64,000 nt of DNA from a virus: the IMG/VR virus record IMGVR_UViG_3300021255_002737; one strand, given 5' to 3'. Shown here piece by piece: positions 3,301-59,705 of the stretch. Numbering within the stretch: the stretch's first letter is position 1; each line of letters opens with the position of its first letter. Below the pieces are notes generated by a model. It worked only from the letters and a program-made list of their open reading frames with translations. It made no database searches and was not told the DNA's origin. The translations under genes and the position numbers were made by a program.

Positions 3301-3954
3301 ATCGTGATACTGGTTGCCGTTGATGCGAATCCAATGACTATGATATGGTTTGTCTTCTGGGATAGAGTAGTGAGCATCTGTTGTTACAACAAGGGGAGCA
3401 TCGTATTTCCTTGCCAACTCAATGACTTTGTCGTTGTACTCCCATTGTTTTTCGATGTTGAGCGGCTGAATCTCTGCATAGAAGCGATCTCCAAATAGCT
3501 CTTTGTATTTCTTGAACCACTCTTCACCATTCTCTGTGTTGACAATAGATGCCATACATGCAGACAAACAAATGAGTCCATCGTTATGTTCCCGTAGGGC
3601 TTCCCAGTCAATTCTAGGCTTGTAGTAGTACGAATCCTCATTATACGCGAATGTATCGAGCTTCTTGAGGTTCATATATCCTTCATCGTTCATCGCAAGG
3701 ATGACTAAGTGATGCGTCAGTGACTTATCCCTAATGTTCACATCGGGACAGAAGTAGAACTCGCAGCCAACAATAGGCTTGATGTCGTTTTTCTGACACT
3801 CCTCGTAGAAGCGGATGGTATTCCGCATAGTACCATGGTCAGTTAGGGAGATTGCAGACATACCCAATGATTTTGCACGTGCTACCATTTCTTGTACAGT
3901 TTGATAACCATCAAGTAGACTACCATCGCTATGGTTATGTAGTGAGATATACAT
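340..3954 (-). CDS. dnaE: DNA polymerase III alpha subunit (DnaE-type replicase) carrying a mini-intein
   Basis: 1204-aa ORF. N-terminal PHP motifs (SLHNHSDGSLLDG, TDHGTM, GCEFY). Conserved FNK/SHSVAYG motif (E. coli GFNKSHSAAYA) interrupted by 155 aa. AAGGAG ribosome-binding site upstream of the ATG. Confidence 0.9.
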   Translation of the reverse strand: MYISLHNHSDGSLLDGYQTVQEMVARAKSLGMSAISLTDHGTMRNTIRFYEECQKNDIKPIVGCEFYFCPDVNIRDKSLTHHLVILAMNDEGYMNLKKLDTFAYNEDSYYYKPRIDWEALREHNDGLICLSACMASIVNTENGEEWFKKYKELFGDRFYAEIQPLNIEKQWEYNDKVIELARKYDAPLVVTTDAHYSIPEDKPYHSHWIRINGNQYHDDENYIWSEDEIRNTRWIPQDVIEECIENTSRIAERCNVTIPDSGSHYPKYPCSNPKGKVREICRSHWKKLVPKGKYKEYAERFEMEMKDLEATNYLEYLLIIWSVLSWCKEQHIPIGEGRGSSAGCLVGYLMGIHKIDPIKYHTEFFRFCNRERRSPADVDSDLSTLNRGRVIEHVKEMYGNVCKVQTLGYTKDPDKPSAGKEAVLKAWQALFNKYKDNAPMVPCEEQGGLMIDPSWEYNPKFKIAASKFVESSIDDLQAAHISLNDEQKAELIDVAKHFCGRIDKVGIHASAVLVTPDDIVNYTPVEGCNTKNKATGEREYIRIACYDFHELEQRGNLKLDLLGLNTLDLIDKCMKYIGNDMNLDDIPMDNEKAYAMYSNGNLDGVFQMESPGMRKVAKELHVSCFDDVAALVALYRPGPLDSGMMQQYIDGKNGATIDYLCNVYKEVTKNTFGVIVYQEQCMKLAMKMAGYSLGEADMLRKVIGRKEMTKIDAAVKEFITRCMENGYSKEIAEKVGMQIKAAGRYLFNKCLSGREYIVTHTGAKTKRSICELYRFFHDDEYNKHQLDPWGVHGIKACSMDNDGKIVENYIVDVRESGVMPVFILETELGKRVRCTLNHKIPTPHGTRLLVELSVGDSVYVSDVLDTHIESVASITHECDEMCYDVEMDNPYHNFVTGNGIIVCNSHSVAYGRLSYKTAYLKAHYPAQFMCALLNTKNDNQEKVIPYLANCKEMGIRILPPDFSKGNKEWQIEGEAIRVGLTYIKGVGKELTLSVQEETNCDYCSLTDWNSIVEHNNSDVVKGLIQAGALDFLNKSRGWMMSNLSNTKKYVKRLQQCRERIGFYRDGYEKAVNDKERARALRMANQWTEKRNNAEFVECKEGHYDKAAGEIATLGFSFSKVPGVLCGVASSVHEITTKNGNKMALVTFKTEDYGTYKGSIAPFLWGHGKTRYGRNKLFVEQGKTYEFMMKKNKQYMDIVDVKEVC
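1243..1707 (-). other. Mini-intein (155 aa, no homing-endonuclease domain) inside DnaE
   Basis: Begins CLSGREYIV (block A Cys1). Contains TLNH (block B TxxH). Ends YHNFVTGNGIIVCN followed by +1 Ser. Removing it restores FNK-SHSVAYG. Confidence 0.8.
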
Positions 3955-20065: not shown

Positions 20066-20478
20066 AACAATCCCTCCTTGCGAAATGCATATTTGAAAAA
20101 TGGTGTCCACCAGGCACGATGATAGATAGTAGAAATGGACTCACCGTATACCGTTGGAACCTGCATGGCTAACAAATCGCCATAGCCAAGGTAGATACCC
20201 GTGTGCAAATCACCGTCTATCTTGAAGATCACGAAGTCACCAAAGGACAGTTCATCGTAATACACCTGTGTCATATTGAGTAGACAATACTTGTACAATC
20301 TACGCCAAACAGAAGGTTCGGAAAAATGGTCTTTGTCTACGGGTTTTCCATCATCAATCGGATGACTCCACCCATGATTGCGATAGAATAGACGGCACAG
20401 TCCAATGCAATCACATTTTGAAAAAGAGGATTCGCCAAAATAATGTGGAATCCCAATGTATTTATTCACGTTTTCCAT
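20062..20478 (-). CDS. NlpC/P60-family tail-associated peptidase (gpK-like)
   Basis: CDCIGLCRLFY (catalytic Cys context) and a downstream GDLHTGIYLG His. Confidence 0.65.
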   Translation of the reverse strand: MENVNKYIGIPHYFGESSFSKCDCIGLCRLFYRNHGWSHPIDDGKPVDKDHFSEPSVWRRLYKYCLLNMTQVYYDELSFGDFVIFKIDGDLHTGIYLGYGDLLAMQVPTVYGESISTIYHRAWWTPFFKYAFRKEGLF

Positions 20479-21170
20479 TAAACAATTTCCACCTCCATTT
20501 GACAGCTATAGCCAACAATGTTTTTCCCTTCGCGATAGTCTGTAATCTCCATAGAATCCGGTAGAATAACAGAGATGAGTTTATGGTCGTACATGACCTT
20601 GAGCGGGACACGACAATGAGAATTAAAGAGTTGAATCATGGTATCTCGTTCGTCTTTCAGGCCACTCCATGTTGCACTCAGCTTCTCGTGTGGTTTATTG
20701 GACTTTGCGCGTCTCTGTGTAGCTCCCATTTCAAGCACCTGTACATTCCAATCGATGGATCGTGTGAACTCATTGTATGGCGATGGTAAAATATCATCGG
20801 TTGATGCGTCGGGATACGACACGCGCTGGGCATCTACTTCCAGTCCAATATCACAGGTGTACATTTGAATTTCCCCTGCTGCCACCTTCTGCTTCACGGA
20901 CAATGTATTGGTAAAATAGCATAAGTCCTTGATTCCATCGTATTCAAAGAAGAATGGATTGAGCTGACCATGATGTTTATTGTAAAAGGCAATGAGCTTA
21001 TCCATGTCTTCACGGATGCCTTGCACGGTAAAGCTATAGGTTTTCTTTGCATGGACACGTTTACGACAATAGAGTTTCGTGCCATTCTCTGATTCGTATT
21101 CATTGGATGACCATGCGAAACCCAATTTCACTTTTCCATAGGGAACGAATGAAAATGTATCAATAGCCAT
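20478..21170 (-). CDS. Distal tail / minor tail protein
   Basis: 230-aa ORF; the first tail-tip gene after the tape measure by synteny. Confidence 0.6.
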   Translation of the reverse strand: MAIDTFSFVPYGKVKLGFAWSSNEYESENGTKLYCRKRVHAKKTYSFTVQGIREDMDKLIAFYNKHHGQLNPFFFEYDGIKDLCYFTNTLSVKQKVAAGEIQMYTCDIGLEVDAQRVSYPDASTDDILPSPYNEFTRSIDWNVQVLEMGATQRRAKSNKPHEKLSATWSGLKDERDTMIQLFNSHCRVPLKVMYDHKLISVILPDSMEITDYREGKNIVGYSCQMEVEIV

Positions 21171-21215
21171 TGTCTACTTCCTTTCATTGTATATTCCATG
21201 AGATACATCGGAATC

Positions 21216-21257
21216 CAATGGAGGAACTATAGTTTTAAACATAAGGTTTTTCCATTG
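21216..21257. repeat. Hairpin family M3, copy 1
   Basis: Stem CAATGGA/TCCATTG around the conserved loop GGAGGAACTATAGTTTTAAACATAAGGTTT. Confidence 0.6.
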
Positions 21258-21319
21258 TCGTTCGATGGATTCATGGTTATCTGAATAGAGGGTTCAATAC
21301 TTCTGCTTGTTTAAATGAT

Positions 21320-21352
21320 TACTTACGTCAGTAAGTATTTGCGATAGCAAAT
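21320..21352. repeat. Tandem double hairpin, copy A1
   Basis: TACTTAC-GTCA-GTAAGTA followed by TTTGC-GATA-GCAAA. Inverted counterpart of 45720..45751. Confidence 0.6.
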
Positions 21353-21490
21353 CAAACACTGTATGAACTATTTGTCTTATTAAAACAAAATAAGCTATTG
21401 ATTTCATGTTGTGATTCCTATGATTTGTTTCTCATAGTTTATTCAACAATTCTTCAATAGCTTATTTTCAATTCAATAGTTTTTATAAAC

Positions 21491-21536
21491 AGACCTTTAG
21501 AAGATTTACTAACGTAAATCATTTGCTAAAGCAAAT
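21491..21536. repeat. Tandem double hairpin, copy A2, with conserved flank
   Basis: CAGACCTTTAGAA + GATTTAC-TAAC-GTAAATC + ATTTGC-TAAA-GCAAAT. Inverted counterpart of 45953..45997. Confidence 0.6.
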
Positions 21537-21601
21537 AATATTTAATCAAGGAGGAAACCACCCAAAGGTTATTCATTATTCTCATATTAGCTCGTGAATC
21601 T

Positions 21602-21644
21602 CAATGAAGGAACCAAAGTTTTAACTCTAAGGATTCATCCATTG
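21602..21644. repeat. Hairpin family M3, copy 2
   Basis: Stem CAATG/CATTG around the GAAGGAACCAAAGTTTTAACTCTAAGGATT loop. Confidence 0.55.
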
Positions 21645-21699
21645 TCATCCACGAAGTCTGTATGGAGATTCAATGTATACTCTATAGTACCCTCTTTAT

Positions 21700-21759
21700 T
21701 TACCCCTCTATATATAATGTCTTTTTTGGGGCATATTGTTCGGTCAAAATCAAAAGTTT
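21700..21759 (-). repeat. Conserved ~50-nt element, copy 1 of 3
   Basis: TTACCCCTCTATATATAATGTC-N6-GGGGCATATTGTTCGGTCAAAA. Confidence 0.6.
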
Positions 21760-21940
21760 AATCAAAGTTTTACTTAGCGTTCTAAAACATGTTCTATTTT
21801 TGCCATATTTAATGCGCCTATATGCCTTTTCTATGTGTTTTCTCAGCATATTTTGTGCAATACCAATGGACATTTATTTCAAGATACCATAGAAATATGC
21901 ACAGAAGGTTATGTCTCCTATGCATATTTGCTATAGTATC

Positions 21941-24900
21941 TTAACGGAAACCGTGTCGTTTTTGGTTATGGAGAATCGATTGGAACGCTCTTGGGTTCCT
22001 CTGGATCGCATTCATAACATCATCACTGGATGCGTGTGTATTCAGTACAACGACATTACCAGAGCCATCGGAATTACCCATGTTCTTAATGGTATCCGTC
22101 TGCTCCTGCATGAGCTGTTCCATGCGTGCATTCGGATTCGTCACACGGACTCCTTCGGCTCTCTTTGCTACACGTGGGGAAATCTGTGGAACATATGGTG
22201 TTGGATTCAACGCACCACCATCGGCAAATGCACCGTAATTCATGGCATCCAGATTGTCCTTACCAATGCGGCTCGTTGCTTCCGCTGTCATGACATATTC
22301 GCCATTAGAAAGAAAAACGAACCTGTCCTTGTCCGCTAGATATGCGAGGATACTATCAGATTTACCAGTGCCAGCACCACGAATCATACCGCCGTTAGCA
22401 TACGCTCTGCTCAGTAATCCGCCCATAGCATGACCACCCAGACTAATGGATGGCGTAGAACCTGCCATGAGCATTGCTTCGGTGAGTGCTTGCATCTGCA
22501 ATGTCTGTGCCTGAGTTGTCACTGTATTCGTCTGGACAGCCGTTGTATTCATTGTGTCTTTCAGGTTAGAGGTCTGTGTCAACGTATTGGAAACATTGGT
22601 GAGTGCCGTTGCTTTCTGTGTGACATTACTGAGTTGACTAGTTGCTTGTACAGACTTGTTCACGGAGGATGCGAGTTCTCCACCACTGGATTTCATGGGG
22701 AAGTAATTGCCATTCAGTACACCGTTGCTCATATCAAGATAACGATTACCCGTTGCAACCTGTGTCCATCTCCTTGGTGTAGCCGTGAATCTCGACGCAT
22801 TATTTGCAAGAAGTCCAACACCTGCATTGACAGCCGCGTTCTTCCCTGCATTACGATTACTGATTGCATCGTCAATCGTTGTTCTTGCATTGAACAGCCA
22901 ACGGTTGACCGTCATTCTCATGATCTGTTGCAATGCAATCTTAGCAACGTCATCCCAGAGCTTTTTCCATGACTCTTTGAAGGAACTACCTTGCTTGATA
23001 ATATCGAAGAACATATCATCAATATCACTCTCAATGGTGCTCCAGAGATTCTTTGTGACTTCATCGTCCTTCTCAGCAATCTCACGGATTTTCGCTTCTG
23101 TTTCTTCGACCTCTTTTTGTATTTTCTGGAAGTTCTCACTGCCATGCTTTGAAAGCTGGTCAATGTTTTCCTTGAGGTCTTTGGCCTTTGCCTTGAGTTC
23201 CGCAATCTTATCCTTGGCCTCATCCGTGTTGTCGCCCTTGTATTGAGCAAGTCCCTTCTCTACGAGTTCACCCTTCTCGTTGTGCTTACCATTCTGGATA
23301 TCATCAAGCTGTTCGTAGTATTCCTCAAGCTGTTCTTGGTCACGCCTACGAATATCCATGAGACTTTCCCTTTGTCTCTTTAGTCTCTCGTTGTAAATAT
23401 CAATTTGAGACTGATAGAGTTCATGGGTATCCATATACTTTTCCTCGTCAGTTTTATTGGAAGTTGTACGGTTATACCATTCCTCAAGGCGTTTCAGACG
23501 GAAGTCCTCATCCTGTTCAGGAGTCATATAGCCATTGCGAATCTTTTCATTTACACGTAACTCAGCGAGTTTGCTATCGGCGTTGCTTAACTGCTCACGA
23601 ACCTTAAAGAGGTTATCAACGAGTTTCTTGAACTCATTATCCTTCTTACTGGTTAAATCAGCGAGCTTTCTTAATTCGTCCTGTGGCATGTCATAAATGC
23701 TTTTGCCGTCGAGTTTATTTTTGATTTCTACGTGCTGATTAAGGTATTCGTCAATATCGTCCGTAAGATTATCATAGGTCTCAACCCATCCCTTACGGTT
23801 TTTCTCTACGGCTTCATAGTATGACTTTTCGCTTGCATCGTTTGCACGAAGTAATTCATAGGTATCGCCATGAATCTTCATCTGATACTCGATGTTTTTC
23901 TTCTTCGCTTCGTAGAGTTTTTGCTGACGGTCTTGGTCATAGATAGTTTCTGCAATTTGATCTCTTGTGAAATCTGCAAGGGTACTCTTGCGACCATCCC
24001 AGAAAGACGGTTTACGAATACTATTAGCATTGCCCTGCATCGGGCCATTGTGATAGCGATTCCATGCTTCGGTGCCTGTACCATCACCAACAAGAGGGCC
24101 TGATGCAGAGTCAACAGTTCTTCCGTCGTTACCCTGACCAAAGGACACATCGTAGTGAGTGCCACTTTCAACCGCGGCAGAAACACCATAATCTCCAAGA
24201 ATATCTTTAAGTACTGCCCCATTATTGTCTATGGACAAGTCTGCTTTATACCCCGCATAGTGTCCCCACGGAGAATTTGAGTGTCCCGAGCCACCAGTCA
24301 ACGATGTAATGGCTAATTTTTGACCAGTTGCGGCATAATAACGGTTTGCAATGATATTGATAAGCCTACGGACGTATGGCTGTAGATTCTCAATGTTATC
24401 CCAGCTGCCACTCATTGTGATATATCGAGAGTCAAGGCCATACATAGACTTATCATCAACATCGTAGCCGCCACTCTGGATACCATTGACATCACCAGAA
24501 GCTCCTTGTCCTTGACCAATGAGTCCTTCTGACATGATACCTCTCATGCTTGCGGCATAGTCATTAGGATTAGCCGTGAAATATCCATTGGCATACATGC
24601 CATTAGCAAGTTCCTCTGGACTAGACGGCTCAGAATCAAAGTCGTTGTCAATTGTATTGGCAAGTTTTGTTGTAAAGTTATCGTCACTACCTTCGTCTAC
24701 ATCTTCGCCACCATCCATACCAGCAAAGTTGTGATTCCGTTTTGCAGCATCGCGCTTGCCACGAGCTGACTCATGCATCATGATGAGCCAATACCAGAGA
24801 GGATTCTTGACCTTCCGTGCTTTACCAGCGGCATCTACGGCGAGTTCCCAAAGATGTGCTTCGTCTGAATCATTGCCAATGTATGCTTGACCATCGGCAG

Positions 24901-26848
24901 AAACAGAGCCACTATAGCCACCAAGGTCATAGAGTCCACCTGCTTGCTCATTTGGATCACTGAATCTTTGGTCATTCTTATTGTAATCATAGTGATTACG
25001 GAGGAACAATGCTTTATCGTTTAACCATGTTTTCCAGTCTTGATCCGTAATGCCAGGCGTAAGGTGTCCCAGTGCTTCTGGCACAGAGAGTCCCTGGGCA
25101 AGATATGGTGCCATCTTCTCATAAAACAAACGTCCAGATTCCCATGTATTGCGTCCACCAGTGCCAAATGGGTCAGACACACCATCGAACTCAAGAGTAT
25201 TAATACCAGTCAATTTCGTGACAATAGCAGACAATGTAGCGATGTCAAGGCCATTCCTTGTATCAAAGTTGGCCTCAAACTTTTTAGACAACTCTGCAAA
25301 CATCTGTGATGTCGTGTCGCCATACTGCCAATCCTCTTTTGGGTCTTTCTTTGTGCGTTCACCGCCACTACTACCGCGCTTTTGTCTTTCACTAGGTGTA
25401 CGATTATACACGTCGCCACCAGCACCTTCACCGGAACCCCATTTTTGCAAGAAGTCATTAGGGTCATTAACAACAGGGGCACTTGTATTAAGTCCACTGG
25501 CAAGATTCGATGCTTCCTGTGTGGCTTTATCAGCCGCCGCTATGATTTTATCGTATCCTGCATGGTATGCTTCCATATACCTGTCGCCCTTAACATCCTC
25601 TTGTGCATTTTCTGCATTTTTGCGCATTTCTGCAACTCTTTGTGTTAAATTACGATACTGTACAACCTCTGCGTTTGACATATGGTAGTCTGGGTCATTG
25701 TATCTGTCATTCATCTCGTCAATTTTGCTTTGCAGTTCATCTGCTTGCTTCGTATAGCTATTAGCCTGTGCTTGGTCGAACTGTTCTTTCATTTGATAAA
25801 AGGCAGTATATGCATTTGCCCAATCGCCGAGTGCCTTAATTCTATCACTAATACCATTGCAGAACTCATATGTCTCTTGTTTCCAGGTATTGAGGTTATC
25901 CTGTGCGTTCTGCCAGTTATTCAGAGCCTCTTGCTGTTTTGCCGAAATAAATTCAGCCAATGCCCTTTTCTTGTCATCCGTTGCTTTCTTATAGTTGTCC
26001 CGCACCTTCTTTGTAGAATCATCTGTCCAGTTATCCGCTTGCATCTGTTGTACAGCAGACCATCCGACAACCTGTGCCATTTGGTTCTCTGTTTCGATAC
26101 GATCCTCAAGGAGTTTCTTCTTCTTCTCGTCGCTGACCGTGGAACTCTCAATCTCTGCCGTGAGCTTCTGGTGAGCAGTAAAGAGTGCATCAAGAAACTC
26201 CTCCTGCTGTGTGTACATTTCAATCTCTTGGCGCTTCACTGCCACGCTATCCTGGATTGCTTCGGTCTGTTTCTGTACGGCATTTGTACTCTCATTGATG
26301 TTGCTTGTGAGTGCTTCAAGACCAAGGTCAAGTGCAAGAGAGACACCGAATGTTGCGGTGGCTTTCAGTAAACTAATACTGTTCTTTAGTGAAATGATAG
26401 CGGCTTTCAGTCCCCCTGCTGCTGTTGTTGCAGCAGCAAAGGCTGTTGACATGTTACTGATTGTCGCTGTTGCACCACTTGCTGTAATCATGTTTAACGA
26501 TGTACGAACCATTCTCATAGCTCTGTTTACAGCGTACATGATAGCAGCTAATTTCACCATGCTACCAAGGAAACTGTATGTGGATGTACTGACCGTAGAC
26601 AGGTAATGTGCCAGATTATCTAATTCCGTAACGCATTCCTTGAGCCATTCGGTAAGGCCACTGTTGCCACCTTGTGCAACCATACCAGTCAAGTCGGCCT
26701 TGAGTTTATTAATGCGACGAGACAGGGAATCCATCTGGTTTTTCACCTGGTTATCCGTGAATCCCATGGAATTGACAGCAAGGCCCCAGTTCTTGATGAT
26801 TTCCTGATAGTTACTGAACATTGCTGCTGCTTTTGCCCATTGAAACTT
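21941..26848 (-). CDS. Tail tape measure protein, exon 2 (contains two muralytic domains)
   Basis: Continues the TP901-type core (KFQWAKAAAMFSNYQ...NSMGFTDNQVKNQMDSL). Hydrophobic segment and long coiled coils. Glucosaminidase-like HESARG...NHNFAGM and LAS/M15-like SGHSNSPWGHYAGYKADL...THYD. Confidence 0.8.
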   Translation of the reverse strand, partial: KFQWAKAAAMFSNYQEIIKNWGLAVNSMGFTDNQVKNQMDSLSRRINKLKADLTGMVAQGGNSGLTEWLKECVTELDNLAHYLSTVSTSTYSFLGSMVKLAAIMYAVNRAMRMVRTSLNMITASGATATISNMSTAFAAATTAAGGLKAAIISLKNSISLLKATATFGVSLALDLGLEALTSNINESTNAVQKQTEAIQDSVAVKRQEIEMYTQQEEFLDALFTAHQKLTAEIESSTVSDEKKKKLLEDRIETENQMAQVVGWSAVQQMQADNWTDDSTKKVRDNYKKATDDKKRALAEFISAKQQEALNNWQNAQDNLNTWKQETYEFCNGISDRIKALGDWANAYTAFYQMKEQFDQAQANSYTKQADELQSKIDEMNDRYNDPDYHMSNAEVVQYRNLTQRVAEMRKNAENAQEDVKGDRYMEAYHAGYDKIIAAADKATQEASNLASGLNTSAPVVNDPNDFLQKWGSGEGAGGDVYNRTPSERQKRGSSGGERTKKDPKEDWQYGDTTSQMFAELSKKFEANFDTRNGLDIATLSAIVTKLTGINTLEFDGVSDPFGTGGRNTWESGRLFYEKMAPYLAQGLSVPEALGHLTPGITDQDWKTWLNDKALFLRNHYDYNKNDQRFSDPNEQAGGLYDLGGYSGSVSADGQAYIGNDSDEAHLWELAVDAAGKARKVKNPLWYWLIMMHESARGKRDAAKRNHNFAGMDGGEDVDEGSDDNFTTKLANTIDNDFDSEPSSPEELANGMYANGYFTANPNDYAASMRGIMSEGLIGQGQGASGDVNGIQSGGYDVDDKSMYGLDSRYITMSGSWDNIENLQPYVRRLINIIANRYYAATGQKLAITSLTGGSGHSNSPWGHYAGYKADLSIDNNGAVLKDILGDYGVSAAVESGTHYDVSFGQGNDGRTVDSASGPLVGDGTGTEAWNRYHNGPMQGNANSIRKPSFWDGRKSTLADFTRDQIAETIYDQDRQQKLYEAKKKNIEYQMKIHGDTYELLRANDASEKSYYEAVEKNRKGWVETYDNLTDDIDEYLNQHVEIKNKLDGKSIYDMPQDELRKLADLTSKKDNEFKKLVDNLFKVREQLSNADSKLAELRVNEKIRNGYMTPEQDEDFRLKRLEEWYNRTTSNKTDEEKYMDTHELYQSQIDIYNERLKRQRESLMDIRRRDQEQLEEYYEQLDDIQNGKHNEKGELVEKGLAQYKGDNTDEAKDKIAELKAKAKDLKENIDQLSKHGSENFQKIQKEVEETEAKIREIAEKDDEVTKNLWSTIESDIDDMFFDIIKQGSSFKESWKKLWDDVAKIALQQIMRMTVNRWLFNARTTIDDAISNRNAGKNAAVNAGVGLLANNASRFTATPRRWTQVATGNRYLDMSNGVLNGNYFPMKSSGGELASSVNKSVQATSQLSNVTQKATALTNVSNTLTQTSNLKDTMNTTAVQTNTVTTQAQTLQMQALTEAMLMAGSTPSISLGGHAMGGLLSRAYANGGMIRGAGTGKSDSILAYLADKDRFVFLSNGEYVMTAEATSRIGKDNLDAMNYGAFADGGALNPTPYVPQISPRVAKRAEGVRVTNPNARMEQLMQEQTDTIKNMGNSDGSGNVVVLNTHASSDDVMNAIQRNPRAFQSILHNQKRHGFR

Positions 26849-27110
26849 CAATTTGTTACTCATAAAAAATAAGCCATAGCTTATCATTACGGGTACGGTC
26901 ATTTCTGCCGTACTCTCACGTTTTATTTCATGACTATATCGTGAGTTCGGACTATACATTCATCCCTCGACTTTACGTTAGGGAGGCTATTTGTAGTCTC
27001 TACGGTTCCCTATATAGGTTTTACCACGGTCTTGTCCTGTCATTAGGAGTTTAACCGTTATTAAAGCATACTAATAATATATTTCTATATTATGCGGCAA
27101 GTTTAGGTCT
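26849..27110 (-). ncRNA. Candidate group I self-splicing intron (262 nt, no ORF) in the tape measure gene
   Basis: R-like GUAGAGACUACAAAU (26990-27003) and S-like AUGUAUAGUCCGAAC (26945-26959) form P7 GACUA/UAGUC. P1 is GCGGU|AG with UUGCCGC, with a U.G pair at the splice site. P10 is AAACUU with the exon-2 start AAGUUU. Terminal G. P2, P3, P8, P9 and two further 3' hairpins can be drawn. The junction is in frame. Confidence 0.7.
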
Positions 27111-29222
27111 ACCGCCACTCATTTGAATCCAGAGGTCTTTCAGGTTTTTGTTTGTCCCTTGGGCAGCAACAGCAACATCCATTAAGACAGCCTGTGCAGA
27201 GCGAACTTTGGTGACACCATTGACAACCTCTGTGGTTGCAATGCCGAGCTTATTGAGTTCCTTTACAGCCTTATCGCTATTGAACGATGCAAGCATTGTC
27301 TTGAGCATATTACCAATTTCCGAACCACTCAATGCCGTTGCACGAGTACCTTGAGCAATGAGTGCATTAAGGAACTCGAAGGAGATTCCTGCCTGTTTAG
27401 CGACCGAACCAGAGCGTTCTACGCCAGCTGCAAGGTCTTGAGCAGAGACACCTGCATTGTGAGATAACTTGGTATATACATCGACAATCTTATTGGAATA
27501 TGCCAATGCTTCTGCACTGTTCTTTGCAACAAGTCCGTACTGGAACATAGCTGCTTCTACGGCCTTTGTGGACTCTGCCATAGAGAAGTTATCGGCAACA
27601 GCCAGTTTTGCTGATTGAGAAACCAATGTATTGACCGTTGCTTGGTCTTTGTACATACGTCCCCAAAGTCTTGCAGATTCCATAACATCCTTTACAGACT
27701 CACCGTATGCGCTTGCCGTGTTAATGAGTGCTCGTTGCTCCTCTTGGTATTTCTCAATGGCTTCAGACGATTTACCTTCAAGCTGCGGCATGACCGTTGC
27801 CAAGTTATGCATTTCCTCATCGAGTTTAACAAGAGAATTGAATGTTTCCGTTGGAACTGCAAAAGCCGCACCAAGCAATGAACCTGCGGTAATCCAATAC
27901 AGATGACTACGCAATTTCTGTTCAAACGACGCAAACTTTTTTGAAGGTTCAGTGTTGTTCACGTCTTTCTGGAAAGCCTCATACTCTTTCCGTACAGCTG
28001 CAAGGCTCGCTTTAACGTTATCCAGTGCGGCCTTATTTGCAGCAGTAGGATCGCTTTTCCAGAGGGCATAGACTCTCTGTTGAACATCTTCAAGTCTACG
28101 AAGTTCCCTTGTATACGATTGGATACCCTCTGCCCATTTACCAGTTGGATCAACTGGCTGTACAGAAGGTGTAGTTGGTGCAGGATTCTTTGTTGTGTTC
28201 ATACTTCTCTGATAGGCTTCTTGTTCTGCCCTTACCTTTGCAATGGTAGTAGCAAGTTTATCAAGGTTTTGCCTTGCTTCCTGTGAGCCATCGTGTCTCC
28301 AGACGATATACATCTGCTCCTGCAATGCCATCAACCGTGATAATTCCTGGGAATACGTCCTGAGTCCAGTTGACCATGCTTCAAGGTTCTTCTGCATAAC
28401 AGCCTTGTTTTGTGCTTCGGAATTGTTGAATGAGCTGAATGGAGACGTGAATGTCTTTGCTCCGCCGATTTTCTGATATTCAGCAAGGAGTTGATTGAAC
28501 TGTTTCATTGATAACTCAAAGTCTGCTCTCTTGACCTGCTGTCCACGTTCCATAGCAAGAGTCTGTCTATCAATGATCCTTTCGATTTGTGTCTCAAGTT
28601 CTGCACGACGTTTTAACTCATCAATAGCAGCCTGAGTACTCCACTTATATGTCGAGTAGTTCTCACTATTGTAAACATTGTCACGAGCAATACCATATTC
28701 TCTGAGCTTTGTAATGACCTCATCCAACGCATTTCTGCGGTTATACCATGTAGATTCAGGAATGAGCTTATTGTTACTCTGGGCAATCGAAAGAGTGCGT
28801 GTTAACTGCTCGTACTTCTTGAGTAATTTATCAATAGCTTCATTGTCTTTAATAGCAGCTTCCTGCATCTTCGTCATGTCCTGAACAAGGTTATTGAAAG
28901 AGCTTGCCTTGATATTTTTCAGGGTATCTTCCAGAGTCTTTTCAAGGGAACGTAAAGACTGCTCTGTCTGCTCTACACCATTAACTTTAATGGATGCGCC
29001 CTTGTTCAGCAACTCAATGCCACGCTTAACCTCACGCAAATCCTCACTGATCGTGTGAAGGTTTGATTTGAAGTTATCATTAACACCAATATTTACATTG
29101 GAATTATTCAGTTTATCAACGAAATTCTTTGCACTTTCGAGGGATTTCTTGACACCCTCAATTTTATCCGTGCCATTGGCAATGATATTGATTTCATATA
29201 CCAACTGTTGTTTGTCTGCCAT
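27111..29222 (-). CDS. Tail tape measure protein, exon 1
   Basis: Start refined to MADKQQLVYE (GGAGGG ribosome-binding site). Coiled coils followed by the TP901-family core (SAYGESVKDVMESARLW...AQDLAAGVERSGSVAKQAGISFEF...). As a stand-alone ORF it would end RPKLAA* inside the proposed intron. Confidence 0.8.
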
Positions 29223-29294
29223 TTTATCCCTCCAATTTGACATAAAAAAATAAGGGATACCATGTTTTACCACGATACCCCTTTGTTATATCAG

Positions 29295-41057: not shown

Positions 41058-41747
41058 TCAAAGTTCCAGTTCAGGATAAGCGACTTCCCATGCCTTAACA
41101 TGGTATGTATTGACTTCTCCATAGTTTGCATCGAAGATTTTCTTTACACCAATCCCAATGTCAGCCGATGCCTGTTTGAGTTTGCGCCACGAAATGCTTT
41201 TCCATGAAATATCATTGAGTTTTGCAACGCGCTTAATGGAATACCATTCTTTGCTGTAGTCCAGCTCTGCCTGTAAGCGTTCTTTCTCCTGCTTTTCTTT
41301 CTTGTACTCCGTGAGTAATTTGATGCAGGAATCAGGATCATTAAGCATCATGTCAATGACACTCTGCTTTGCATACAGGCCATGTTTACGAATGTCAGGA
41401 AGAACTTCATGTGTAACCCAATGTTTGAACTTCTTGGCTGTAGGGAGTTTACTGCCAAAAATCAGGGCATATACACCGGACTCACTGATAAACCAATTAT
41501 CCTGACGCCCAAGTTTATTCTGCATTTCCTTTACCGAACTAAAGAGTTTTAGCATTTCGCTACCACGCTCCGACCTAAGGAATTTATCCTCGCAATCAAC
41601 ATGGTCATGAACAGCTTCATTTGGGTTCTTGTATCCGAGAATATCCGCTACATCTTTCCCAACGAACCAAGGCTCATTGTTGATAATAACAGTGCGAACC
41701 TTGCCGAACTCTGGATTGTTAAAAACCTGTAATACATTGTTTTCCAT
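41058..41747 (-). CDS. Bro-N domain antirepressor
   Basis: FGKVRTVIINNEPWFVGKDVADILGY...GVYALIFGSKLPTAKKFKHWVTHEVLPDIRKHG. Confidence 0.8.
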   Translation of the reverse strand: MENNVLQVFNNPEFGKVRTVIINNEPWFVGKDVADILGYKNPNEAVHDHVDCEDKFLRSERGSEMLKLFSSVKEMQNKLGRQDNWFISESGVYALIFGSKLPTAKKFKHWVTHEVLPDIRKHGLYAKQSVIDMMLNDPDSCIKLLTEYKKEKQEKERLQAELDYSKEWYSIKRVAKLNDISWKSISWRKLKQASADIGIGVKKIFDANYGEVNTYHVKAWEVAYPELEL

Positions 41748-42523
41748 ATAACACCATACCTTTCAAAGAAACATTCCTTATTCTCGACAACAATCACAAG
41801 ACGTTAACCTTGCTTTTGCTATAAAATAACGGCGAGCGACAGGGAAGGAATGGTAAAACCTGTCAATGGGGAGCTACCCCGACTCGCCGGTATAAACAAA
41901 TAAACATAAAACTACACTGGAAAATAAGGTTTCCCTTTATGTCCTCATGTTCTGTGTTATTGTGTTACGAGCAATACAAGTCTGAGCAACGACTAGCAAC
42001 TTTCGCGCTTCTTGCACTAGGAGCTAACTCCCCTATGACTCGACAGGACTATGACCTGCATCTTTCATTCATCATTCAGAAATGATATGCTTTTTCTAAC
42101 CAATATTATGCAGATTGAACTACTCTACCTATCTACTTCCGTTATAGCTGCGGTTAAACAGCGTCACTGCAATACCTGTTTGATTGGGTTTATACCTATG
42201 GTTAGACCATGTGAACCCAGACACATGATTTCATAGGCGACCGTATTGGTGCTTGCACAGGCCGGAAGGGACGGACACTACACTCGACATGATTCACACA
42301 TATCCCAACAAGATAAGCTCTTTGAACTCTCATCGGCATAATCGCTTACGTCAACTAATGAATGGTACAGGCTATCGTCTATATCATCCATTTCTCTTAA
42401 CAGGGATATTCTCAGCGGACTGACAATCCTCTGCACTGAGTTATCTTCCAGTACAGTTTTATGTCTATTTATAATGGTGGGGATGGTTTAATTGGACACA
42501 TCCCCATAAAAATAAAATATTAC
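41748..42523. ncRNA. Candidate large structured non-coding RNA region (776 nt, no ORF) next to the tRNA genes
   Basis: Dense local hairpins, including a three-way junction at 41830-41889 (CGGCGAG/CTCGCCG enclosing ACAGG/CCTGT and GGGG/CCCC). Confidence 0.35.
41790..41818 (-). promoter_or_regulatory. Shared operator/promoter box upstream of an antirepressor gene, copy 1
   Basis: CAATCACAAGACGTTAACCTTGCTTTTGC; 28 of 29 positions identical to 43139..43167. Confidence 0.5.
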
Positions 42524-43138: not shown

Positions 43139-43167
43139 CAATCACAAGACGTTAACCTTGCTCTTGC
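43139..43167 (-). promoter_or_regulatory. Shared operator/promoter box upstream of an antirepressor gene, copy 2
   Basis: CAATCACAAGACGTTAACCTTGCTCTTGC. Confidence 0.5.
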
Positions 43168-43266: not shown

Positions 43267-43316
43267 TTACCCCTCTATATATAATGTCGAAAAATGGGGG
43301 TAATTGTTCGGTAAAA
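43267..43316 (-). repeat. Conserved ~50-nt element, copy 2 of 3
   Basis: TTACCCCTCTATATATAATGTCGAAAAATGGGGGTAATTGTTCGGTAAAA. Confidence 0.6.
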
Positions 43317-45483: not shown

Positions 45484-45719
45484 GTCTTGTCCTCCTGCAA
45501 ATAAAAAAGACCATAGTATCCCATTTCAGAGACATCCTATGGTCTTACCTTGGTACATCTATAGTATATACATTGTATATACTATGTGTATCAATGGATA
45601 TTATTGTATTCTATTGTTAAAACCTATGAAATACATCCATAGTTCTTCTAACGTCATTCAATGATTTGATTGAAAGAGTATAGTCTTATCAATGGACACA
45701 TGGTTTATACAGTGTTCTG

Positions 45720-45751
45720 ATTTGCTATCGCAAATACTTGCTAAAGCAAGT
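45720..45751. repeat. Tandem double hairpin, copy B1
   Basis: ATTTGC-TATC-GCAAAT followed by ACTTGC-TAAA-GCAAGT. Confidence 0.6.
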
Positions 45752-45834
45752 GAATCTATTTAATCAAGGGAAGGTTTGGAACCATCATTGCACTCACATT
45801 GCTTACTCATTAACCCTATGTCTATCATTGTTAT

Positions 45835-45875
45835 CAACGGAGGAACTATGGTTACTATCTAAGGTTCTATCGTTG
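45835..45875. repeat. Hairpin family M3, copy 3
   Basis: Stem CAACG/CGTTG around the GAGGAACTATGGTTACTATCTAAGGTTC loop. Confidence 0.55.
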
Positions 45876-45952
45876 GTATCAATGTATTCTATAGACACTC
45901 AATGGATACTCAATGTATTACTATGTACTCTCATTGTCTGTCTGTTTATATT

Positions 45953-45997
45953 ATTTGCGAAGCAAATGATTCACGAAGTGAATCTTCTAAAGGTCTG
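45953..45997. repeat. Tandem double hairpin, copy B2, with conserved flank
   Basis: ATTTGC-GAA-GCAAAT + GATTCAC-GAA-GTGAATC + TTCTAAAGGTCTG. Confidence 0.6.
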
Positions 45998-46076
45998 TTT
46001 ACAGAGATTCAATGTATTCTATAGTATCTCTATGGTCTCCCCTATAACCCCAAAAGGGTATATTTTCCCCCACGAC

Positions 46077-46346: not shown

Positions 46347-46395
46347 TTACCCCTCTATATATAATGTCGAAAAATGGGGGTATTTGTTCGGTAAA
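46347..46395 (-). repeat. Conserved ~50-nt element, copy 3 of 3
   Basis: TTACCCCTCTATATATAATGTCGAAAAATGGGGGTATTTGTTCGGTAAA. Confidence 0.6.
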
Positions 46396-58154: not shown

Positions 58155-58746
58155 ATGGCAGGGTTTTCACCATGTCACAGAATACATGCCAATGAGGGAG
58201 TCTATGGTTCTTGCGCTGTCTGTAAATGGTTTTCAGCTGCAAGTAATTTGTGGAAACCCTTGCGGTCAGATTGAGTCCAACAGGACAAGACAAAAGAAGT
58301 TTAAGATATGCTTTCTTGGCTGCTTTTGTTGTCTTTTCGTTCCCTGTCTGTTTTGCAATCTCTTGTTTGACAAGGTAATCATTCTGTAATTCCATCATGA
58401 TGTCAACCATTCGATTGTCTACGGATTCATCCATACATGTTCTAATGTCCATTTTGGAGAGTCTATGCATAGTGGACTGGGAAGATACAATGTCGAACCA
58501 ATGGTATCGTTCTGCTTCCGTCCAGACTTTAACAGGAGCTTTCAGATCAAACTGCACAATGATTCCTTTTAATGCACAGTCATGCCCTGAACCAGCAGGT
58601 GAAGAACCGAGTCTTGTCATGCGGAGAATATCCTTGTCTGTACATTCATTGGACCTTGGCTCATTGGACTTCATAGGAAATCCCGATGCAGCACAGGATT
58701 CATTCAGACCATATACGTGTATATTCTTGACTTCTAACAATGTCAT
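58126..58746 (-). CDS. Hypothetical protein with weak ThyX-like features
   Basis: 206 aa. ERYHWFDIVSSQSTMHRL aligns loosely with the ThyX RHRxxSxxxxSxRY box, but the Arg/His residues are not conserved. Confidence 0.3.
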   Translation of the reverse strand: MTLLEVKNIHVYGLNESCAASGFPMKSNEPRSNECTDKDILRMTRLGSSPAGSGHDCALKGIIVQFDLKAPVKVWTEAERYHWFDIVSSQSTMHRLSKMDIRTCMDESVDNRMVDIMMELQNDYLVKQEIAKQTGNEKTTKAAKKAYLKLLLSCPVGLNLTARVSTNYLQLKTIYRQRKNHRLPHWHVFCDMVKTLPYAKDFGVVD

Positions 58747-59705
58747 TCCCCTTTCTTCATCTGATACTCTGGGTTGATAACCTTGAAGGAAAAGCGATTG
58801 CCTGGGAAACCTTGCAGCCCTTCAATGGGTTCAATCGGACGGATTACAATGCCCTCTCTAGGGAAATTGCCAAAGGTACTATTGCCGATTGCCATCTTCA
58901 CTAATTCGTCAATATTGTCAGTCAGGGCAAACTCATTGACAATCGGAACCGTGTCAACGTTGTGGAAACCAAGGAATACATCCATAGTATCCTGGTCGAA
59001 ATATCCATGCTTGGCGATGTCATACACTGAGAAAACATAGATATGATGCTCAGGTAAATGCAGGTGGTTGCCCTGTTGTTTTGGCCCGACAAATTCACCC
59101 TGAATAGCAATGTCTTTATCCAGATTGGAAATGAAATCAAGGAGCCCCTGTTTCTCTGCTGTTCTGAACATGGGAGACGTATTGTCTACTTCACGTTTCC
59201 TTGTACAGACACCAATATGGCCTTTGCTGCGGAAAATCGTACAGGATGAACCGTCGAGCTTTTCAGTAGCATAACAGGGAACGCCTTTGTACTTCGTGAG
59301 CAGTTCTGGAATATTCTGTGCTCGTACTTCGTCTGTCTTAGGAATGTACCAAGGGAAAGCACCGACGGTATCCATTGGCTGTTCTGGGGGTTCATATTTT
59401 ACAATGCCAAGTTCCTTTGTCATATCCGTGCCAACAGGTGCACCTCCGTGATATTCCAGTGCAATGCCCTGAGAATATACACCGCGAATCTTCTGGAGTT
59501 TGATATGGGATTTACCTTTGAGAAAAGCAAAGGTCTCATTCTTCGGACAAATACTGTCTGTCTCAATGTAGATAACCTTGTCCCCAACATGGTATCCTTT
59601 GGGAACAACACATTGAAAACCTTCGATATGTGCCAATTCAATACGGTCTGCATTTTCAATCGGTGTAAGGTTACGGATTACCTGTACAGATGCCAATTTT
59701 CTCAA
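58743..59705 (-). CDS. RNA ligase (nucleotidyltransferase with N-terminal OB-like domain)
   Basis: Motif I ATEKLDGSS. N-terminus KLASVQVIRNLTPIENADRIELAHIEGF is typical of the DRB0094-type family. Confidence 0.7.
   Translation of the reverse strand: MRKLASVQVIRNLTPIENADRIELAHIEGFQCVVPKGYHVGDKVIYIETDSICPKNETFAFLKGKSHIKLQKIRGVYSQGIALEYHGGAPVGTDMTKELGIVKYEPPEQPMDTVGAFPWYIPKTDEVRAQNIPELLTKYKGVPCYATEKLDGSSCTIFRSKGHIGVCTRKREVDNTSPMFRTAEKQGLLDFISNLDKDIAIQGEFVGPKQQGNHLHLPEHHIYVFSVYDIAKHGYFDQDTMDVFLGFHNVDTVPIVNEFALTDNIDELVKMAIGNSTFGNFPREGIVIRPIEPIEGLQGFPGNRFSFKVINPEYQMKKGE

What the first reader, a model, noticed from the sequence alone, without database searches (positions are those of the whole stretch)
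21171..21940. 770-nt non-coding, hairpin-rich insert inside the tail operon
Tail morphogenesis genes are normally packed head to tail. Here the tape measure stop (21941) and the distal tail gene start (21170) are separated by 770 nt with no credible ORF. The only roughly 58-codon frame lacks a ribosome-binding site and is not conserved in the element's other copies.

The region is assembled from modules that recur at 45.5-46.4 kb:
- Two tandem double hairpins.
- Two M3 hairpins with SD-like loops (GGAGGAAC).
- A TCAATGTATnCTATAG box.
- One copy of the ~50-nt conserved element.

This suggests an expressed structured RNA or a cis-acting DNA element embedded in late transcripts.
Basis: seen in the sequence. 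Interest (0 to 1): 0.65.

Follow-up and report, generated by a model that had tools for sequence, protein, structure and literature searches.

The report
Promoter plus palindromic leader in tail operon
The 770-base gap between the tape-measure and distal-tail genes of this Mitsuokella prophage is an operon boundary: a terminator-like RNA hairpin, a phage-specific promoter also found at the start of the phage's abundant ROOL RNA, and a 470-base mirror-image block of palindromic repeats in the leader, not a new large structured RNA.

Summary
Window 21171-21940 is a 770-nt, AT-rich gap with no conserved ORF. It folds far better than chance (z -6.2 and -5.5; flanking coding controls z about 0), and its modules recur at 45.5-46.4 kb.

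On the gene (-) strand it has four parts:
1. A 30-bp hairpin starting at the tape-measure stop. It is stable only on the sense strand and looks like a terminator.
2. A spacer with two haplotypes.
3. A conserved promoter-like element with core GACATTATATATAGAGGGGTAA.
4. A roughly 470-nt imperfect foldback (M3a, double hairpin, central palindrome, double hairpin, M3b), followed by the ribosome-binding site.

The short motif CATTATAWATAGA occurs four times in the window, always intergenic and co-oriented with the genes. One copy ends exactly at the 5' end of the abundant ROOL RNA.

A distant phage (tail proteins 35-40% identical) has the same core between its tape-measure and tail genes, in a gap of only 113 nt with no hairpin modules. 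It has another copy about 95 nt upstream of its ROOL.

The modules show no sense-strand bias, occur in both orientations, match no Rfam family and give no abundant RNA.

Verdict: an internal promoter region enlarged by lineage-specific REP/BIME-like palindromic repeats. It is moderately interesting.

The parts
21941..26959 (-). C-terminal tape-measure ORF (1672 aa). Its stop codon lies inside the foot of hairpin T1.
   Evidence: PHROG tape-measure hits; ORF list.
21879..21944 (-). T1: a 30-bp near-perfect hairpin at the 3' end of the tape-measure message. It looks like a terminator or an RNase III substrate.
   Evidence: The MFE structure is. In all six orthologues the sense strand folds at -33 to -37 kcal/mol against -20 to -24 for the antisense strand, and UUUU follows the stem in four of them. 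In L001 and L019 an IS605-type tnpB element has replaced 46 nt of it.
21776..21878 (.). Variable A-rich spacer with two unrelated haplotypes among close relatives.
   Evidence: Identity to the window is 0.49-0.50 in L002, L004, L020 and L021 but 0.94 in L003.
21722..21775 (-). Conserved region upstream of the core. It contains two TAGAAC repeats and the ACCGAACAAT box shared with the other two copies.
   Evidence: The region and the core together are 0.90-0.975 identical in all relatives; repeat family D1.
21700..21721 (-). 22-nt promoter core GACATTATATATAGAGGGGTAA. The -10-like CATTAT lies at 21719-21714 and the predicted start is A21707.
   Evidence: Three exact copies against 0 expected. 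CATTATAWATAGA occurs four times, all on the - strand and intergenic, and one copy ends at the ROOL 5' end at 42464. The same core occupies the same syntenic position in a distant phage and lies upstream of its ROOL.
21670..21690 (-). Box CTATAGAGTATACATTGA with a 5-bp hairpin at the predicted 5' end of the transcript.
   Evidence: Two compensatory pair changes in L003. Homologous to 46046-46004.
21193..21662 (.). About 470-nt imperfect foldback. The left half is the reverse complement of the right half.
   Evidence: Left half against the reverse complement of the right half scores 31, versus -13.6 +/- 6.3 for shuffles, with 152 of 235 matches. The direct alignment is at noise level. Self-inverted BLAST hit 21553-21303.
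21591..21655 (-). M3a long hairpin (left arm).
   Evidence: The sense strand folds better in six of seven orthologues.
21504..21536 (.). DH-A: two adjacent 6-bp hairpins, ATTTGC-TTTA-GCAAAT and ATTTAC-GTTA-GTAAAT.
   Evidence: The stems are invariant and the loops vary among orthologues. With its flank it matches 45948-46001 in inverted orientation at 87.5%.
21387..21468 (.). Central palindrome at the apex of the foldback. It has 15-nt perfect arms, AAAATAAGCTATTGA and TCAATAGCTTATTTT, and an inner hairpin.
   Evidence: Two pairs show compensatory changes.
21321..21352 (.). DH-B: ATTTGC-TATC-GCAAAT and ACTTAC-TGAC-GTAAGT, the mirror of DH-A.
   Evidence: With its flank (21376-21288) it matches 45695-45786 in inverted orientation at 80%.
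21196..21276 (.). M3b long hairpin (right arm, the mirror of M3a). It carries GTTCCTCC 45 nt upstream of the ribosome-binding site.
   Evidence: It folds 6.6-13.1 kcal/mol better on the + strand in all seven orthologues.
21168..21193 (-). Right copy of the direct repeat TATACAATGAA (the left copy is TATACATTGAA at 21679-21669), the AAAGGAAG ribosome-binding site and the ATG of the distal-tail gene.
   Evidence: Sequence read. This may be a target-site duplication, which is an inference only.
20478..21170 (-). Distal-tail-like gene (230 aa), the first gene downstream.
   Evidence: phrog_38152 at E 1.8e-86. It is followed by NlpC/P60, hub and Phage-tail_3 proteins.
42464..42476 (-). Variant motif CATTATAAATAGA that ends at the ROOL 5' end.
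43267..43288 (-). Second exact core copy, upstream of the KilAC/ANT gene and ROOL. A terminator-like hairpin follows it.
46347..46368 (-). Third exact core copy, at the head of the 1058-nt gap upstream of phoH.
45695..46035 (.). Related modules in the second gap: box 46009-46035, DH 45953-45983, box 45879-45905, M3c 45826-45884, DH 45720-45751.

Best explanation
The gap is an operon boundary inside the tail module, enlarged by a block of palindromic repeats. Steps 1 and 3 rest on anatomy shown here. Step 2 is inferred from several independent contexts. Step 4 is inference only.

1. Tape-measure transcripts end in, or are processed at, hairpin T1. T1 is a 30-bp RNA hairpin that starts at the stop codon and is stable only on the sense strand.

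2. About 170 nt downstream lies a phage-specific promoter: the core GACATTATATATAGAGGGGTAA with a -10-like CATTAT and no -35 hexamer. It probably depends on an activator or an alternative sigma factor. Transcription is predicted to restart at A21707 for the distal-tail, NlpC/P60, hub and tail-tip genes.

3. The resulting 5' leader of about 535 nt is mostly one ~470-nt foldback, laid out as M3a, double hairpin, central palindrome, double hairpin, M3b. The foldback is specific to this lineage and probably arose by inverted duplication or insertion of REP/BIME-like palindromic units. The same units, in alternating orientation, fill the other long leader behind the same promoter type at 45.5-46.4 kb.

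4. In the mRNA the foldback would form a long irregular hairpin of about -140 kcal/mol. I infer that it acts at the RNA level, as a processing or stability determinant of the tail-tip message that may also modulate access to the ribosome-binding site next to M3b. It is not a free-standing ncRNA.
For: Promoter:
- Three exact 22-mers against 0 expected, all on the gene strand and all intergenic.
- The shorter motif CATTATAWATAGA occurs four times against 0.38 expected. The fourth copy ends exactly at nucleotide 42464. That is the first ROOL nucleotide by Rfam and also the end of the depth-189 RNA contig. This places +1 seven nt after CATTAT.
- In IMGVR_UViG_2834101283_000005, whose tail proteins are 35-40% identical, the same core sits in a 113-nt gap between the tape-measure-like ORF and the P60-like tail gene. 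It also sits about 95 nt upstream of that phage's ROOL and tRNAs, and its flanks are unrelated.
- In the 46-kb gap, the nucleotides from the predicted +1 onward form the closing helix of a conserved downstream RNA.
- The core is 0.90-0.975 identical among relatives, against 0.57-0.81 at third codon positions.
- A 1.7-kb IS605-type tnpB insertion between the tape-measure gene and the core is tolerated in L001 and L019. This suggests the downstream genes do not need read-through.

T1:
- The sense strand is 10-15 kcal/mol more stable than the antisense strand in six orthologues, and UUUU follows in four.

Foldback and modules:
- z -6.2 against about 0 for coding controls.
- Mirror symmetry.
- Eight perfect DH stems against 0.09 expected, with symmetric G:C to A:T changes between paralogues and orthologues.
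- 91% of cells are paired, and 5 pairs show compensatory change against 2.0 in shuffles (8 of 500 shuffles reach this).
- The leader is more conserved than third codon positions: 0.70-0.87 against 0.57-0.81.
Against: - No transcription start has been mapped. The only RNA contig in the gap (21461-21697, depth 2.2) is at the level of possible DNA carry-over.
- The sigma-70 scan does not pick up the core, and there is no -35 hexamer.
- No sigma factor, activator or RNA polymerase gene was recognised in the window.
- The ROOL 5' end could be a processing site rather than a start.
- For an RNA-level role of the foldback there is no sense-strand bias: 36 G.U against 25 A.C cells.
- M3b and M3c fold much better on the antisense strand.
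- The modules occur in both orientations.
- The covariation is modest, and intrastrand template switching could produce it without selection.
Confidence: 0.5

Rival explanations
1. The boundary and promoter are as in the best explanation. The foldback and its relatives, however, are selfish or neutral DNA palindromes: MITE-, REP- or BIME-like units, or products of inverted duplication kept perfect by template-switch correction. They have piled up in two permissive leaders and do nothing for the phage.
For: - Mirror-image architecture.
- Modules with their flanks occur in both orientations.
- No strand bias in wobble pairs, and M3b and M3c keep A.C mismatches on the sense strand in all orthologues.
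- An 11-nt direct repeat (10 of 11 identical) flanks the foldback, and a 27-nt direct repeat flanks a DH module in the 46-kb gap.
- The modules are absent from the distant phage that shares the core and the gene order.
- They are confined to this lineage in IMG/VR.
- The same spot accepted an IS605-type insertion.
Against: - All eight relatives carry the full foldback in the same place; no empty site and no presence/absence polymorphism was found.
- DNA assemblies at 193-306x show one form only.
- The leader evolves more slowly than third codon positions.
- The window holds only four DH copies, and no RAYT or matching transposase is in view.
Confidence: 0.27
2. One reading: the gap encodes a discrete, functional structured ncRNA that is expressed within or from the late transcripts.
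For: - Strong folding z-scores.
- Some compensatory pairs.
- Conservation above the synonymous level.
- The same promoter type does drive structured RNAs elsewhere: ROOL, and a ~280-nt conserved RNA candidate at 46355-46040.
Against: - No Rfam hit even at E up to 10.
- The antisense strand folds equally well.
- No G.U excess, the modules are mirrored, and the loops are not conserved.
- No abundant RNA in the sample where ROOL is at depth 189.
- No terminator closes the unit before the distal-tail gene.
- The region is missing from the distant syntenic phage.
Confidence: 0.1
3. The region works at the DNA level. It could be a transcription-activated replication origin or priming site (a promoter followed by an AT-rich, palindrome-rich unwinding region, as at T4 ori(uvsY), the T7 primary origin or ColE1 RNA II). 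Alternatively it could be an array of protein-binding palindromes.
For: - AT-rich (GC 0.34).
- A large palindrome lies directly downstream of a strong conserved promoter.
- Orientation-independent modules and invariant stems with free 4-nt centres resemble spaced half-sites.
- The phage encodes its own PolIII alpha.
- One match to the IHF consensus, AATCAATAGCTTA, lies in the central palindrome. This was read from the sequence and compared with a consensus recalled from memory.
Against: - There are two such regions, not one, and neither is near the replication genes.
- No iterons are present.
- The half-sites of each DH always change together, which points to base pairing rather than recognition by a dimer.
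- The 6-bp arms are too short for cruciform extrusion.
- GC skew only follows gene direction.
- Nothing tested here addresses replication.
Confidence: 0.07
4. The conserved core is an RNA processing site rather than a promoter. A nuclease would cut polycistronic transcripts after AUAG, giving the ROOL 5' end and separating the tape-measure and tail-tip messages.
For: - The ROOL 5' end coincides with the motif.
- The core is conserved well into the would-be transcribed part, through GAGGGGTAAT.
- No -35 hexamer is present.
Against: - The conserved upstream A/T tracts and the ACCGAACAA box make sense as DNA signals.
- Terminator-like hairpins lie upstream of the core (T1) and, in some copies, just downstream of it.
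- CATTAT lies at exactly -12 to -7.
- The IS insertion upstream is tolerated.
Confidence: 0.06

Closest known systems
Operon boundaries inside phage late regions, such as the phage T7 intergenic RNase III hairpins next to internal promoters
   Same: A long imperfect RNA hairpin at the end of one cistron (T1: 30 bp, sense-biased) is followed by a strongly conserved phage-specific promoter of about 22 nt that restarts transcription inside a morphogenesis cluster. The core even resembles the T7-type TATAG start region.
   Different: The window shows no single-subunit RNA polymerase gene. The -10-like CATTAT suggests the host polymerase with a phage factor. Cleavage by RNase III has not been tested. 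The leader, at about 535 nt, is far longer than in T7.
REP/BIME and REPIN elements of bacterial chromosomes
   Same: Short palindromic units (the double hairpins) occur in alternating orientation, separated by two alternating linker motifs (M3 and the central palindrome). They lie in transcribed intergenic DNA and form larger foldbacks. Their stems are kept while their loops drift.
   Different: The window holds only four units, in two gaps of a phage, rather than hundreds across a chromosome. No GTAG head and no RAYT gene were seen. Each unit is a pair of 6-bp hairpins. Whether the units are spread through the host genome could not be checked.
MITEs and foldback elements
   Same: A non-coding element of about 470 nt with long inverted arms, a possible short flanking direct repeat, and related pieces elsewhere in the genome.
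   Different: The arms are only about 65% alike. No empty site and no polymorphism were found in eight relatives. There are no full-length second copies and no cognate transposase.
The lambda PR'-qut-tR' late promoter arrangement
   Same: A promoter is conserved well into the initially transcribed region. Some copies are followed within 15-60 nt by an intrinsic-terminator-like hairpin (43.2 kb copy; L015). The same unit stands at the head of several long transcription units.
   Different: No Q-like gene was recognised. The copy in this gap has no nearby terminator. Pausing and antitermination have not been tested.
   Same: It is present in the same phage at 41907-42464 and is driven by the same motif type.
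   Different: The gap has no similarity to ROOL, GOLLD or any other Rfam model.

Membership tests
Rfam structured RNA families (ROOL, GOLLD and all 4227 models) | A covariance-model match at or near the family's gathering score | tested here: not met
   At gathering thresholds the whole window yields only ROOL at 41907-42464 and tRNA-Thr. In E-value mode on 21100-22000 the best hit is a miRNA-hairpin artefact of 26.7 bits against a threshold of 95.
Structured ncRNA in general | Structure specific to one strand, with an excess of G.U over A.C and the sense strand folding better than the antisense | tested here: not met
   MFE is -139.9 (sense) against -138.8 (antisense). There are 36 G.U against 25 A.C cells in a structure derived from the sense strand. 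M3b is 6.6-13.1 kcal/mol better on the antisense strand in all seven orthologues. T1 is the exception and is sense-biased.
Structured ncRNA in general | Covariation that supports the helices | tested here: inconclusive
   Five pairs show compensatory change against 2.0 +/- 1.1 in shuffles (8 of 500 shuffles reach this), from only seven close sequences. Covariation among DH paralogues is clear but does not distinguish the strands.
Sigma-70-type promoter | -35 and -10 hexamers 16-18 nt apart | tested here: not met
   The scan does not report the core. A -10-like CATTAT is present, but no -35 hexamer lies at 16-18 nt in this lineage (read from the sequence).
Promoter in general | A primary transcript 5' end at a fixed distance from the motif | tested here: inconclusive
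   The ROOL RNA end at 42464 lies 7 nt after CATTAT. Whether that end is primary or processed is unknown. The gap contig begins at 21697, 10 nt after the predicted +1, but its depth is only 2.2.
Promoter in general | Intergenic, co-oriented with downstream genes, and conserved across diverged genomes with unrelated flanks | tested here: met
   All four window copies and all of L007, L015, L017 and L010 fit.
Intrinsic terminator (T1) | A G+C-rich stem followed by a U run | tested here: inconclusive
   The scan finds no terminator in 20900-22200. The T1 stem is long and A+U-rich. UUUU follows it in four of six orthologues but not in the window.
MITE or foldback element | Terminal inverted repeats | tested here: met
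   The left half against the reverse complement of the right half scores 31, about 7 SD above shuffles.
MITE or foldback element | Target-site duplication and empty sites in relatives | tested here: inconclusive
   TATACATTGAA and TATACAATGAA flank the element. All eight relatives are filled, so no empty site was found.
REP/BIME | Many copies dispersed in the intergenic regions of the host chromosome, with an associated RAYT | not testable with these tools
In IMG/VR the DH pattern occurs only in this lineage.
T7-like single-subunit RNA polymerase promoter | A cognate phage RNA polymerase gene | tested here: not met
   No RNA polymerase domain appears among the window proteins scanned. About 13 kb of the phage lies outside the window.
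Protein-coding gene | An ORF conserved among relatives, with a ribosome-binding site | tested here: not met
   Indels that are not multiples of three occur throughout the alignment.

The most novel reading that the evidence does not exclude
The double-hairpin, M3 and central-palindrome units would be a previously undescribed family of phage-borne, orientation-alternating palindromic elements, a phage counterpart of REP/BIME mosaics. They would specifically occupy the leaders behind one phage promoter type and be read there as a cis-acting signal. That signal could be an RNA processing or antitermination platform, or a transcription-primed replication start, so that the promoter and foldback work as one functional unit.
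Probability: 0.15. Interest if true: 0.6.

Novelty: new variant of a known kind. Interest (0 to 1): 0.38.

Why it matters
- It gives a concrete, testable promoter motif, CATTATAWATAG followed by A at +1, for an uncharacterised group of Negativicutes (Mitsuokella) prophages.
- It links that motif to expression of ROOL, a large RNA whose function is still unknown. A culturable lysogen, M. multacida DSM 20544, carries a close relative of this phage, so both the promoter and ROOL can be studied by experiment.
- It shows that a long non-coding gap in a tail operon need not hide a new ribozyme-sized RNA. Here a short ancestral promoter gap, 113 nt in the distant relative, has grown through palindromic repeats.
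- The mirror-image, BIME-like layout of these repeats in a phage is unusual and is a tractable case for asking how such mosaics arise and whether they are co-opted.

Tried and rejected
- Searches of GenBank phages by megablast, blastn and tblastn found nothing.
- Rfam at gathering thresholds and in permissive mode found nothing in either gap.
- Small-ORF hypotheses on both strands were rejected. The antisense 60-108-aa hydrophobic frame merely follows the conserved promoter DNA, has no SD sequence, and differs in its C-terminus between haplotypes.
- An intron or split-gene reading was rejected because the tape-measure ORF has its own stop and the distal-tail gene has its own ribosome-binding site and ATG.
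- The degenerate M3 pattern scan of IMG/VR was too loose. It returned more than 117 mostly chance hits and was discarded.
- Exact scans for the DH pattern and a flank 18-mer found only this lineage.
- The ORF upstream of the 46-kb core was tested as a candidate late regulator. Its homologues are unnamed 76-80-aa proteins with no Pfam or PHROG match.
- Wastewater 'RNA' runs cover the relatives evenly and give no information on transcript ends.
- An invertible-segment (inverton) idea was rejected because DNA assemblies at 193-306x show a single form with no joints.
- A T-shaped, AAV-ITR-like fold of DH with its flanks was rejected because the flanks are not complementary (read from the sequence).
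- The similarity between the IS605 left-end hairpin (GCTATTCAATAGC) and the central palindrome arms was judged a chance 6-mer match.
Full report
**Context.** The window is most of a temperate siphovirus.
- It encodes a tyrosine integrase, Bro/KilAC proteins, PolIII alpha, NrdD/NrdG, an RNA ligase, PhoH, a ROOL RNA and a tRNA-Thr.
- Close relatives (79-89% nucleotide identity) are IMG/VR and gut-metagenome contigs. One is a prophage in the complete genome of Mitsuokella multacida DSM 20544. The host is therefore a Negativicute.
- GenBank phages hold nothing similar.
- Genes from about 47 kb down to 1 are on the - strand, so the finding is read on that strand.

**Observation check.**
- The tape-measure ORF ends at 21941 and the distal-tail-like ORF (phrog_38152, E 1.8e-86) starts at 21170 behind an AAAGGAAG ribosome-binding site.
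- The rest of the genome is tightly packed. Only three gaps exceed 700 nt.
- GC falls to 0.34 in the gap.
- No ORF on either strand is conserved in six orthologous gaps. The 57-codon frame loses its ATG in the second spacer haplotype.
- The gap folds far better than shuffled sequence: z -6.2 for 21700-21160 and z -5.5 for 21945-21700. Equal-length pieces of the two flanking genes give z +0.18 and -0.14.

**Anatomy on the - strand.**
1. T1, 21944-21879, is a 30-bp hairpin whose foot contains the tape-measure stop codon.
   - In all six orthologues it is 10-15 kcal/mol more stable on the sense strand than on the antisense strand. UUUU follows it in four.
   - It is therefore an RNA-level 3' hairpin, either terminator-like or a possible RNase III substrate.
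   - In L001 and L019 a 1.7-kb IS605-type tnpB element has replaced 46 nt of it.
2. A spacer, 21878-21776, has two unrelated haplotypes.
3. A conserved element, 21775-21697, ends in the 22-mer GACATTATATATAGAGGGGTAA (21721-21700).
4. A small 5-bp hairpin in the box CTATAGAGTATACATTGA shows two compensatory pair changes in L003.
5. The stretch 21662-21193 contains, in order:
   - M3a (21655-21591)
   - double hairpin DH-A (21536-21504)
   - a central palindrome (21468-21387)
   - DH-B (21352-21321)
   - M3b (21276-21196)
6. The ribosome-binding site and ATG follow.

**The conserved element behaves as a promoter.**
- The 22-mer occurs three times exactly (0 expected), always intergenic and on the gene strand.
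- The shorter motif CATTATAWATAGA occurs four times against 0.38 expected.
  - The fourth copy, 42476-42464, ends exactly at the first nucleotide of ROOL as placed by Rfam.
  - That nucleotide is also the end of the RNA contig that carries ROOL at depth 189, in a metatranscriptome from the very sample that holds this phage.
  - This makes CATTAT a -10-like hexamer, with +1 seven nucleotides downstream. It predicts a start at A21707 in the gap.
- IMGVR_UViG_2834101283_000005 shares only 35-40% identical tail proteins and no flanking DNA similarity, yet it carries the same core three times.
  - One copy is about 95 nt upstream of its ROOL and three tRNAs.
  - One copy lies in a 113-nt gap between its tape-measure-like ORF and its P60-like tail gene. 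That is the same syntenic position as the finding, but with no hairpin modules.
- A further phage (L010) has the core ahead of a co-oriented run of genes and tRNAs.
- In the 46-kb gap, the nucleotides from the predicted +1 form the closing helix of a conserved downstream RNA.
- Among relatives the element is 0.90-0.975 identical, against 0.57-0.81 at third codon positions.
- Points against:
  - There is no -35 hexamer, and the sigma-70 scan misses the core.
  - No sigma factor, activator or RNA polymerase gene was recognised.
  - No start site has been mapped. The only RNA contig in the gap (21461-21697, beginning 10 nt after the predicted +1) has depth 2.2, which is indistinguishable from DNA carry-over in a sample where the phage DNA is at 193-306x.

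**The hairpin modules are one mirror-image block of palindromic repeats, not a strand-specific RNA.**
- The left half (21662-21428) aligns with the reverse complement of the right half (21427-21193) at score 31. Shuffles give -13.6 +/- 6.3, and 152 of 235 positions match. The direct alignment is at noise level. The 'two double hairpins' and 'two M3 hairpins' are thus the arms of a single ~470-nt foldback.
- All eight hairpins of the type AYTYRC-N3-4-GYRART in the window lie in the two long gaps (0.09 expected).
  - Their stems are perfect and invariant in orthologues, while their loops drift.
  - Paralogues and orthologues differ by symmetric G:C to A:T changes.
  - So intrastrand pairing, or palindrome correction, is maintained.
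- Nothing marks the sense strand.
  - Both strands fold alike.
  - G.U and A.C cells number 36 and 25.
  - M3a folds better on the sense strand, but M3b (all seven orthologues) and M3c fold 7-14 kcal/mol better on the antisense strand.
- DH units with their flanks match the 46-kb gap in inverted orientation: 87.5% over 56 nt and 80% over 92 nt.
- The 46-kb gap reads box-DH-box-M3c-DH and this gap reads box-M3a-DH-C-DH-M3b. DH units alternate in orientation between two kinds of linker hairpin, which is the logic of REP/BIME mosaics.
- An 11-nt direct repeat, TATACATTGAA and TATACAATGAA, flanks the foldback. Removing the foldback would leave a leader of about 55 nt.
- The modules are confined to this lineage in IMG/VR. 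They are present in all eight relatives and show no alternative DNA form.
- The leader is 0.70-0.87 identical to relatives, somewhat above third codon positions. Compensatory changes are modest: 5 pairs against 2.0 in shuffles.

**Interpretation.**
- What is shown:
  - the gap and its architecture
  - the recurrence and conservation of the core
  - its association with the ROOL 5' end and with the tape-measure/tail junction in a distant phage
  - the sense bias of T1
  - the mirror symmetry and lack of strand bias of the modules
- What is inferred:
  - The core is a promoter, which I put at about 0.7.
  - T1 ends or processes the upstream message.
  - The foldback is transcribed as a 5' leader and affects the stability, processing or translation of the tail-tip message. 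This is about as likely as its being a passenger.
- The reading as a discrete ncRNA is weak. There is no Rfam match, no abundant RNA where ROOL is abundant, and the distant syntenic phage lacks the region.

**Comparison with known systems.**
- The region works like an internal operon boundary with a phage-specific promoter. Its repeat block looks like REP/BIME, REPIN or foldback MITEs.
- It cannot be filed as a member of any of these. No RAYT, no dispersed copies, no empty site and no cognate RNA polymerase or Q gene were found. The host-wide distribution of the units could not be tested.
- It is a new variant of known kinds and of moderate interest.

Noticed in passing
window 41907-42464 (-): ROOL RNA (RF03087, 214.8 bits). 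In the metatranscriptome of the sample that holds this phage, its depth is 189 against 2-9 for neighbouring genes. The 586-nt contig equals 556 + 30 nt, which makes it a circular unitig joining 42464 to 41909, exactly the Rfam ends. This could mean circular or concatenated ROOL molecules (the phage encodes an RNA ligase at 58743..59705), or RT template switching across the terminal helix. The one paper in the library that holds both 'ROOL RNA' and 'circular' does not describe ROOL as circular.
   Followed up: partly
window 41059-41726 (within the Bro-N ORF 41058..41747, -): A second circular unitig (698 = 668 + 30 nt) joins 41726 back to 41059. It appears in two RNA runs, at depth 8.8 and 4.1. 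It remains unexplained.
   Followed up: no
window 46040-46355 (-): A conserved RNA candidate of about 280-300 nt lies directly behind the third promoter core. Across five sequences, 8 of 111 predicted pairs show compensatory changes and there are many sense-strand G.U pairs. Its 5' end, from the predicted +1, pairs with its 3' part. No Rfam match was found at E up to 10. It may be a new structured RNA.
   Followed up: partly
window 45495-45550 (-): An intrinsic terminator (AAGACCATAG...CTATGGTCTTTTTTATTT; sense -19.3 against antisense -12.3 kcal/mol) lies immediately before the phoH ribosome-binding site, at the end of the 1058-nt leader. The phoH unit may be controlled by attenuation or antitermination.
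   Followed up: partly
window 26960-27089 and ORFs 27090..29273 / 21941..26959 (-): The tape-measure protein is encoded as two ORFs, of 727 aa (PhageMin_Tail domain) and 1672 aa. A 130-nt non-coding spacer separates them, and the second ORF has its own ribosome-binding site.
   Followed up: partly
L001 1634-3275 (and L019): An IS605-type element carrying a 375-aa TnpB-like ORF is inserted right after the tape-measure stop and replaces 46 nt of hairpin T1. Its 3' end carries two tandem copies of a ~120-nt omega-RNA-like segment ending in TCAA.
   Followed up: partly
window 41791-41819 and 43139-43167: A 29-nt direct repeat (97% identical) brackets the 1.35-kb segment that holds the KilAC/ANT gene and ROOL. 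This suggests the segment was inserted or duplicated as a cassette ahead of the Bro gene.
   Followed up: no
window 47014-47117: Two tandem 52-nt repeats rich in CATTG/CAATG lie in the 773-nt divergent control region where gene direction switches. They are candidate operators or iterons.
   Followed up: no
window 340-3954 (-): The PolIII alpha (DnaE-type) gene has a weak Intein_splicing hit at residues 816-903 (E 2.3e-5, below the Pfam cut-off). It may contain a mini-intein.
   Followed up: no
window 43200-43265 (-); L015 3690-3730: In two contexts the promoter core is followed within 15-60 nt by a G+C-rich hairpin and a T run: GGACACGG...CCGTGTCCTTTTATTAT and GGGACTC...GAGTCCCTTTCTTTTT. The arrangement resembles lambda PR'-tR'.
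   Followed up: no
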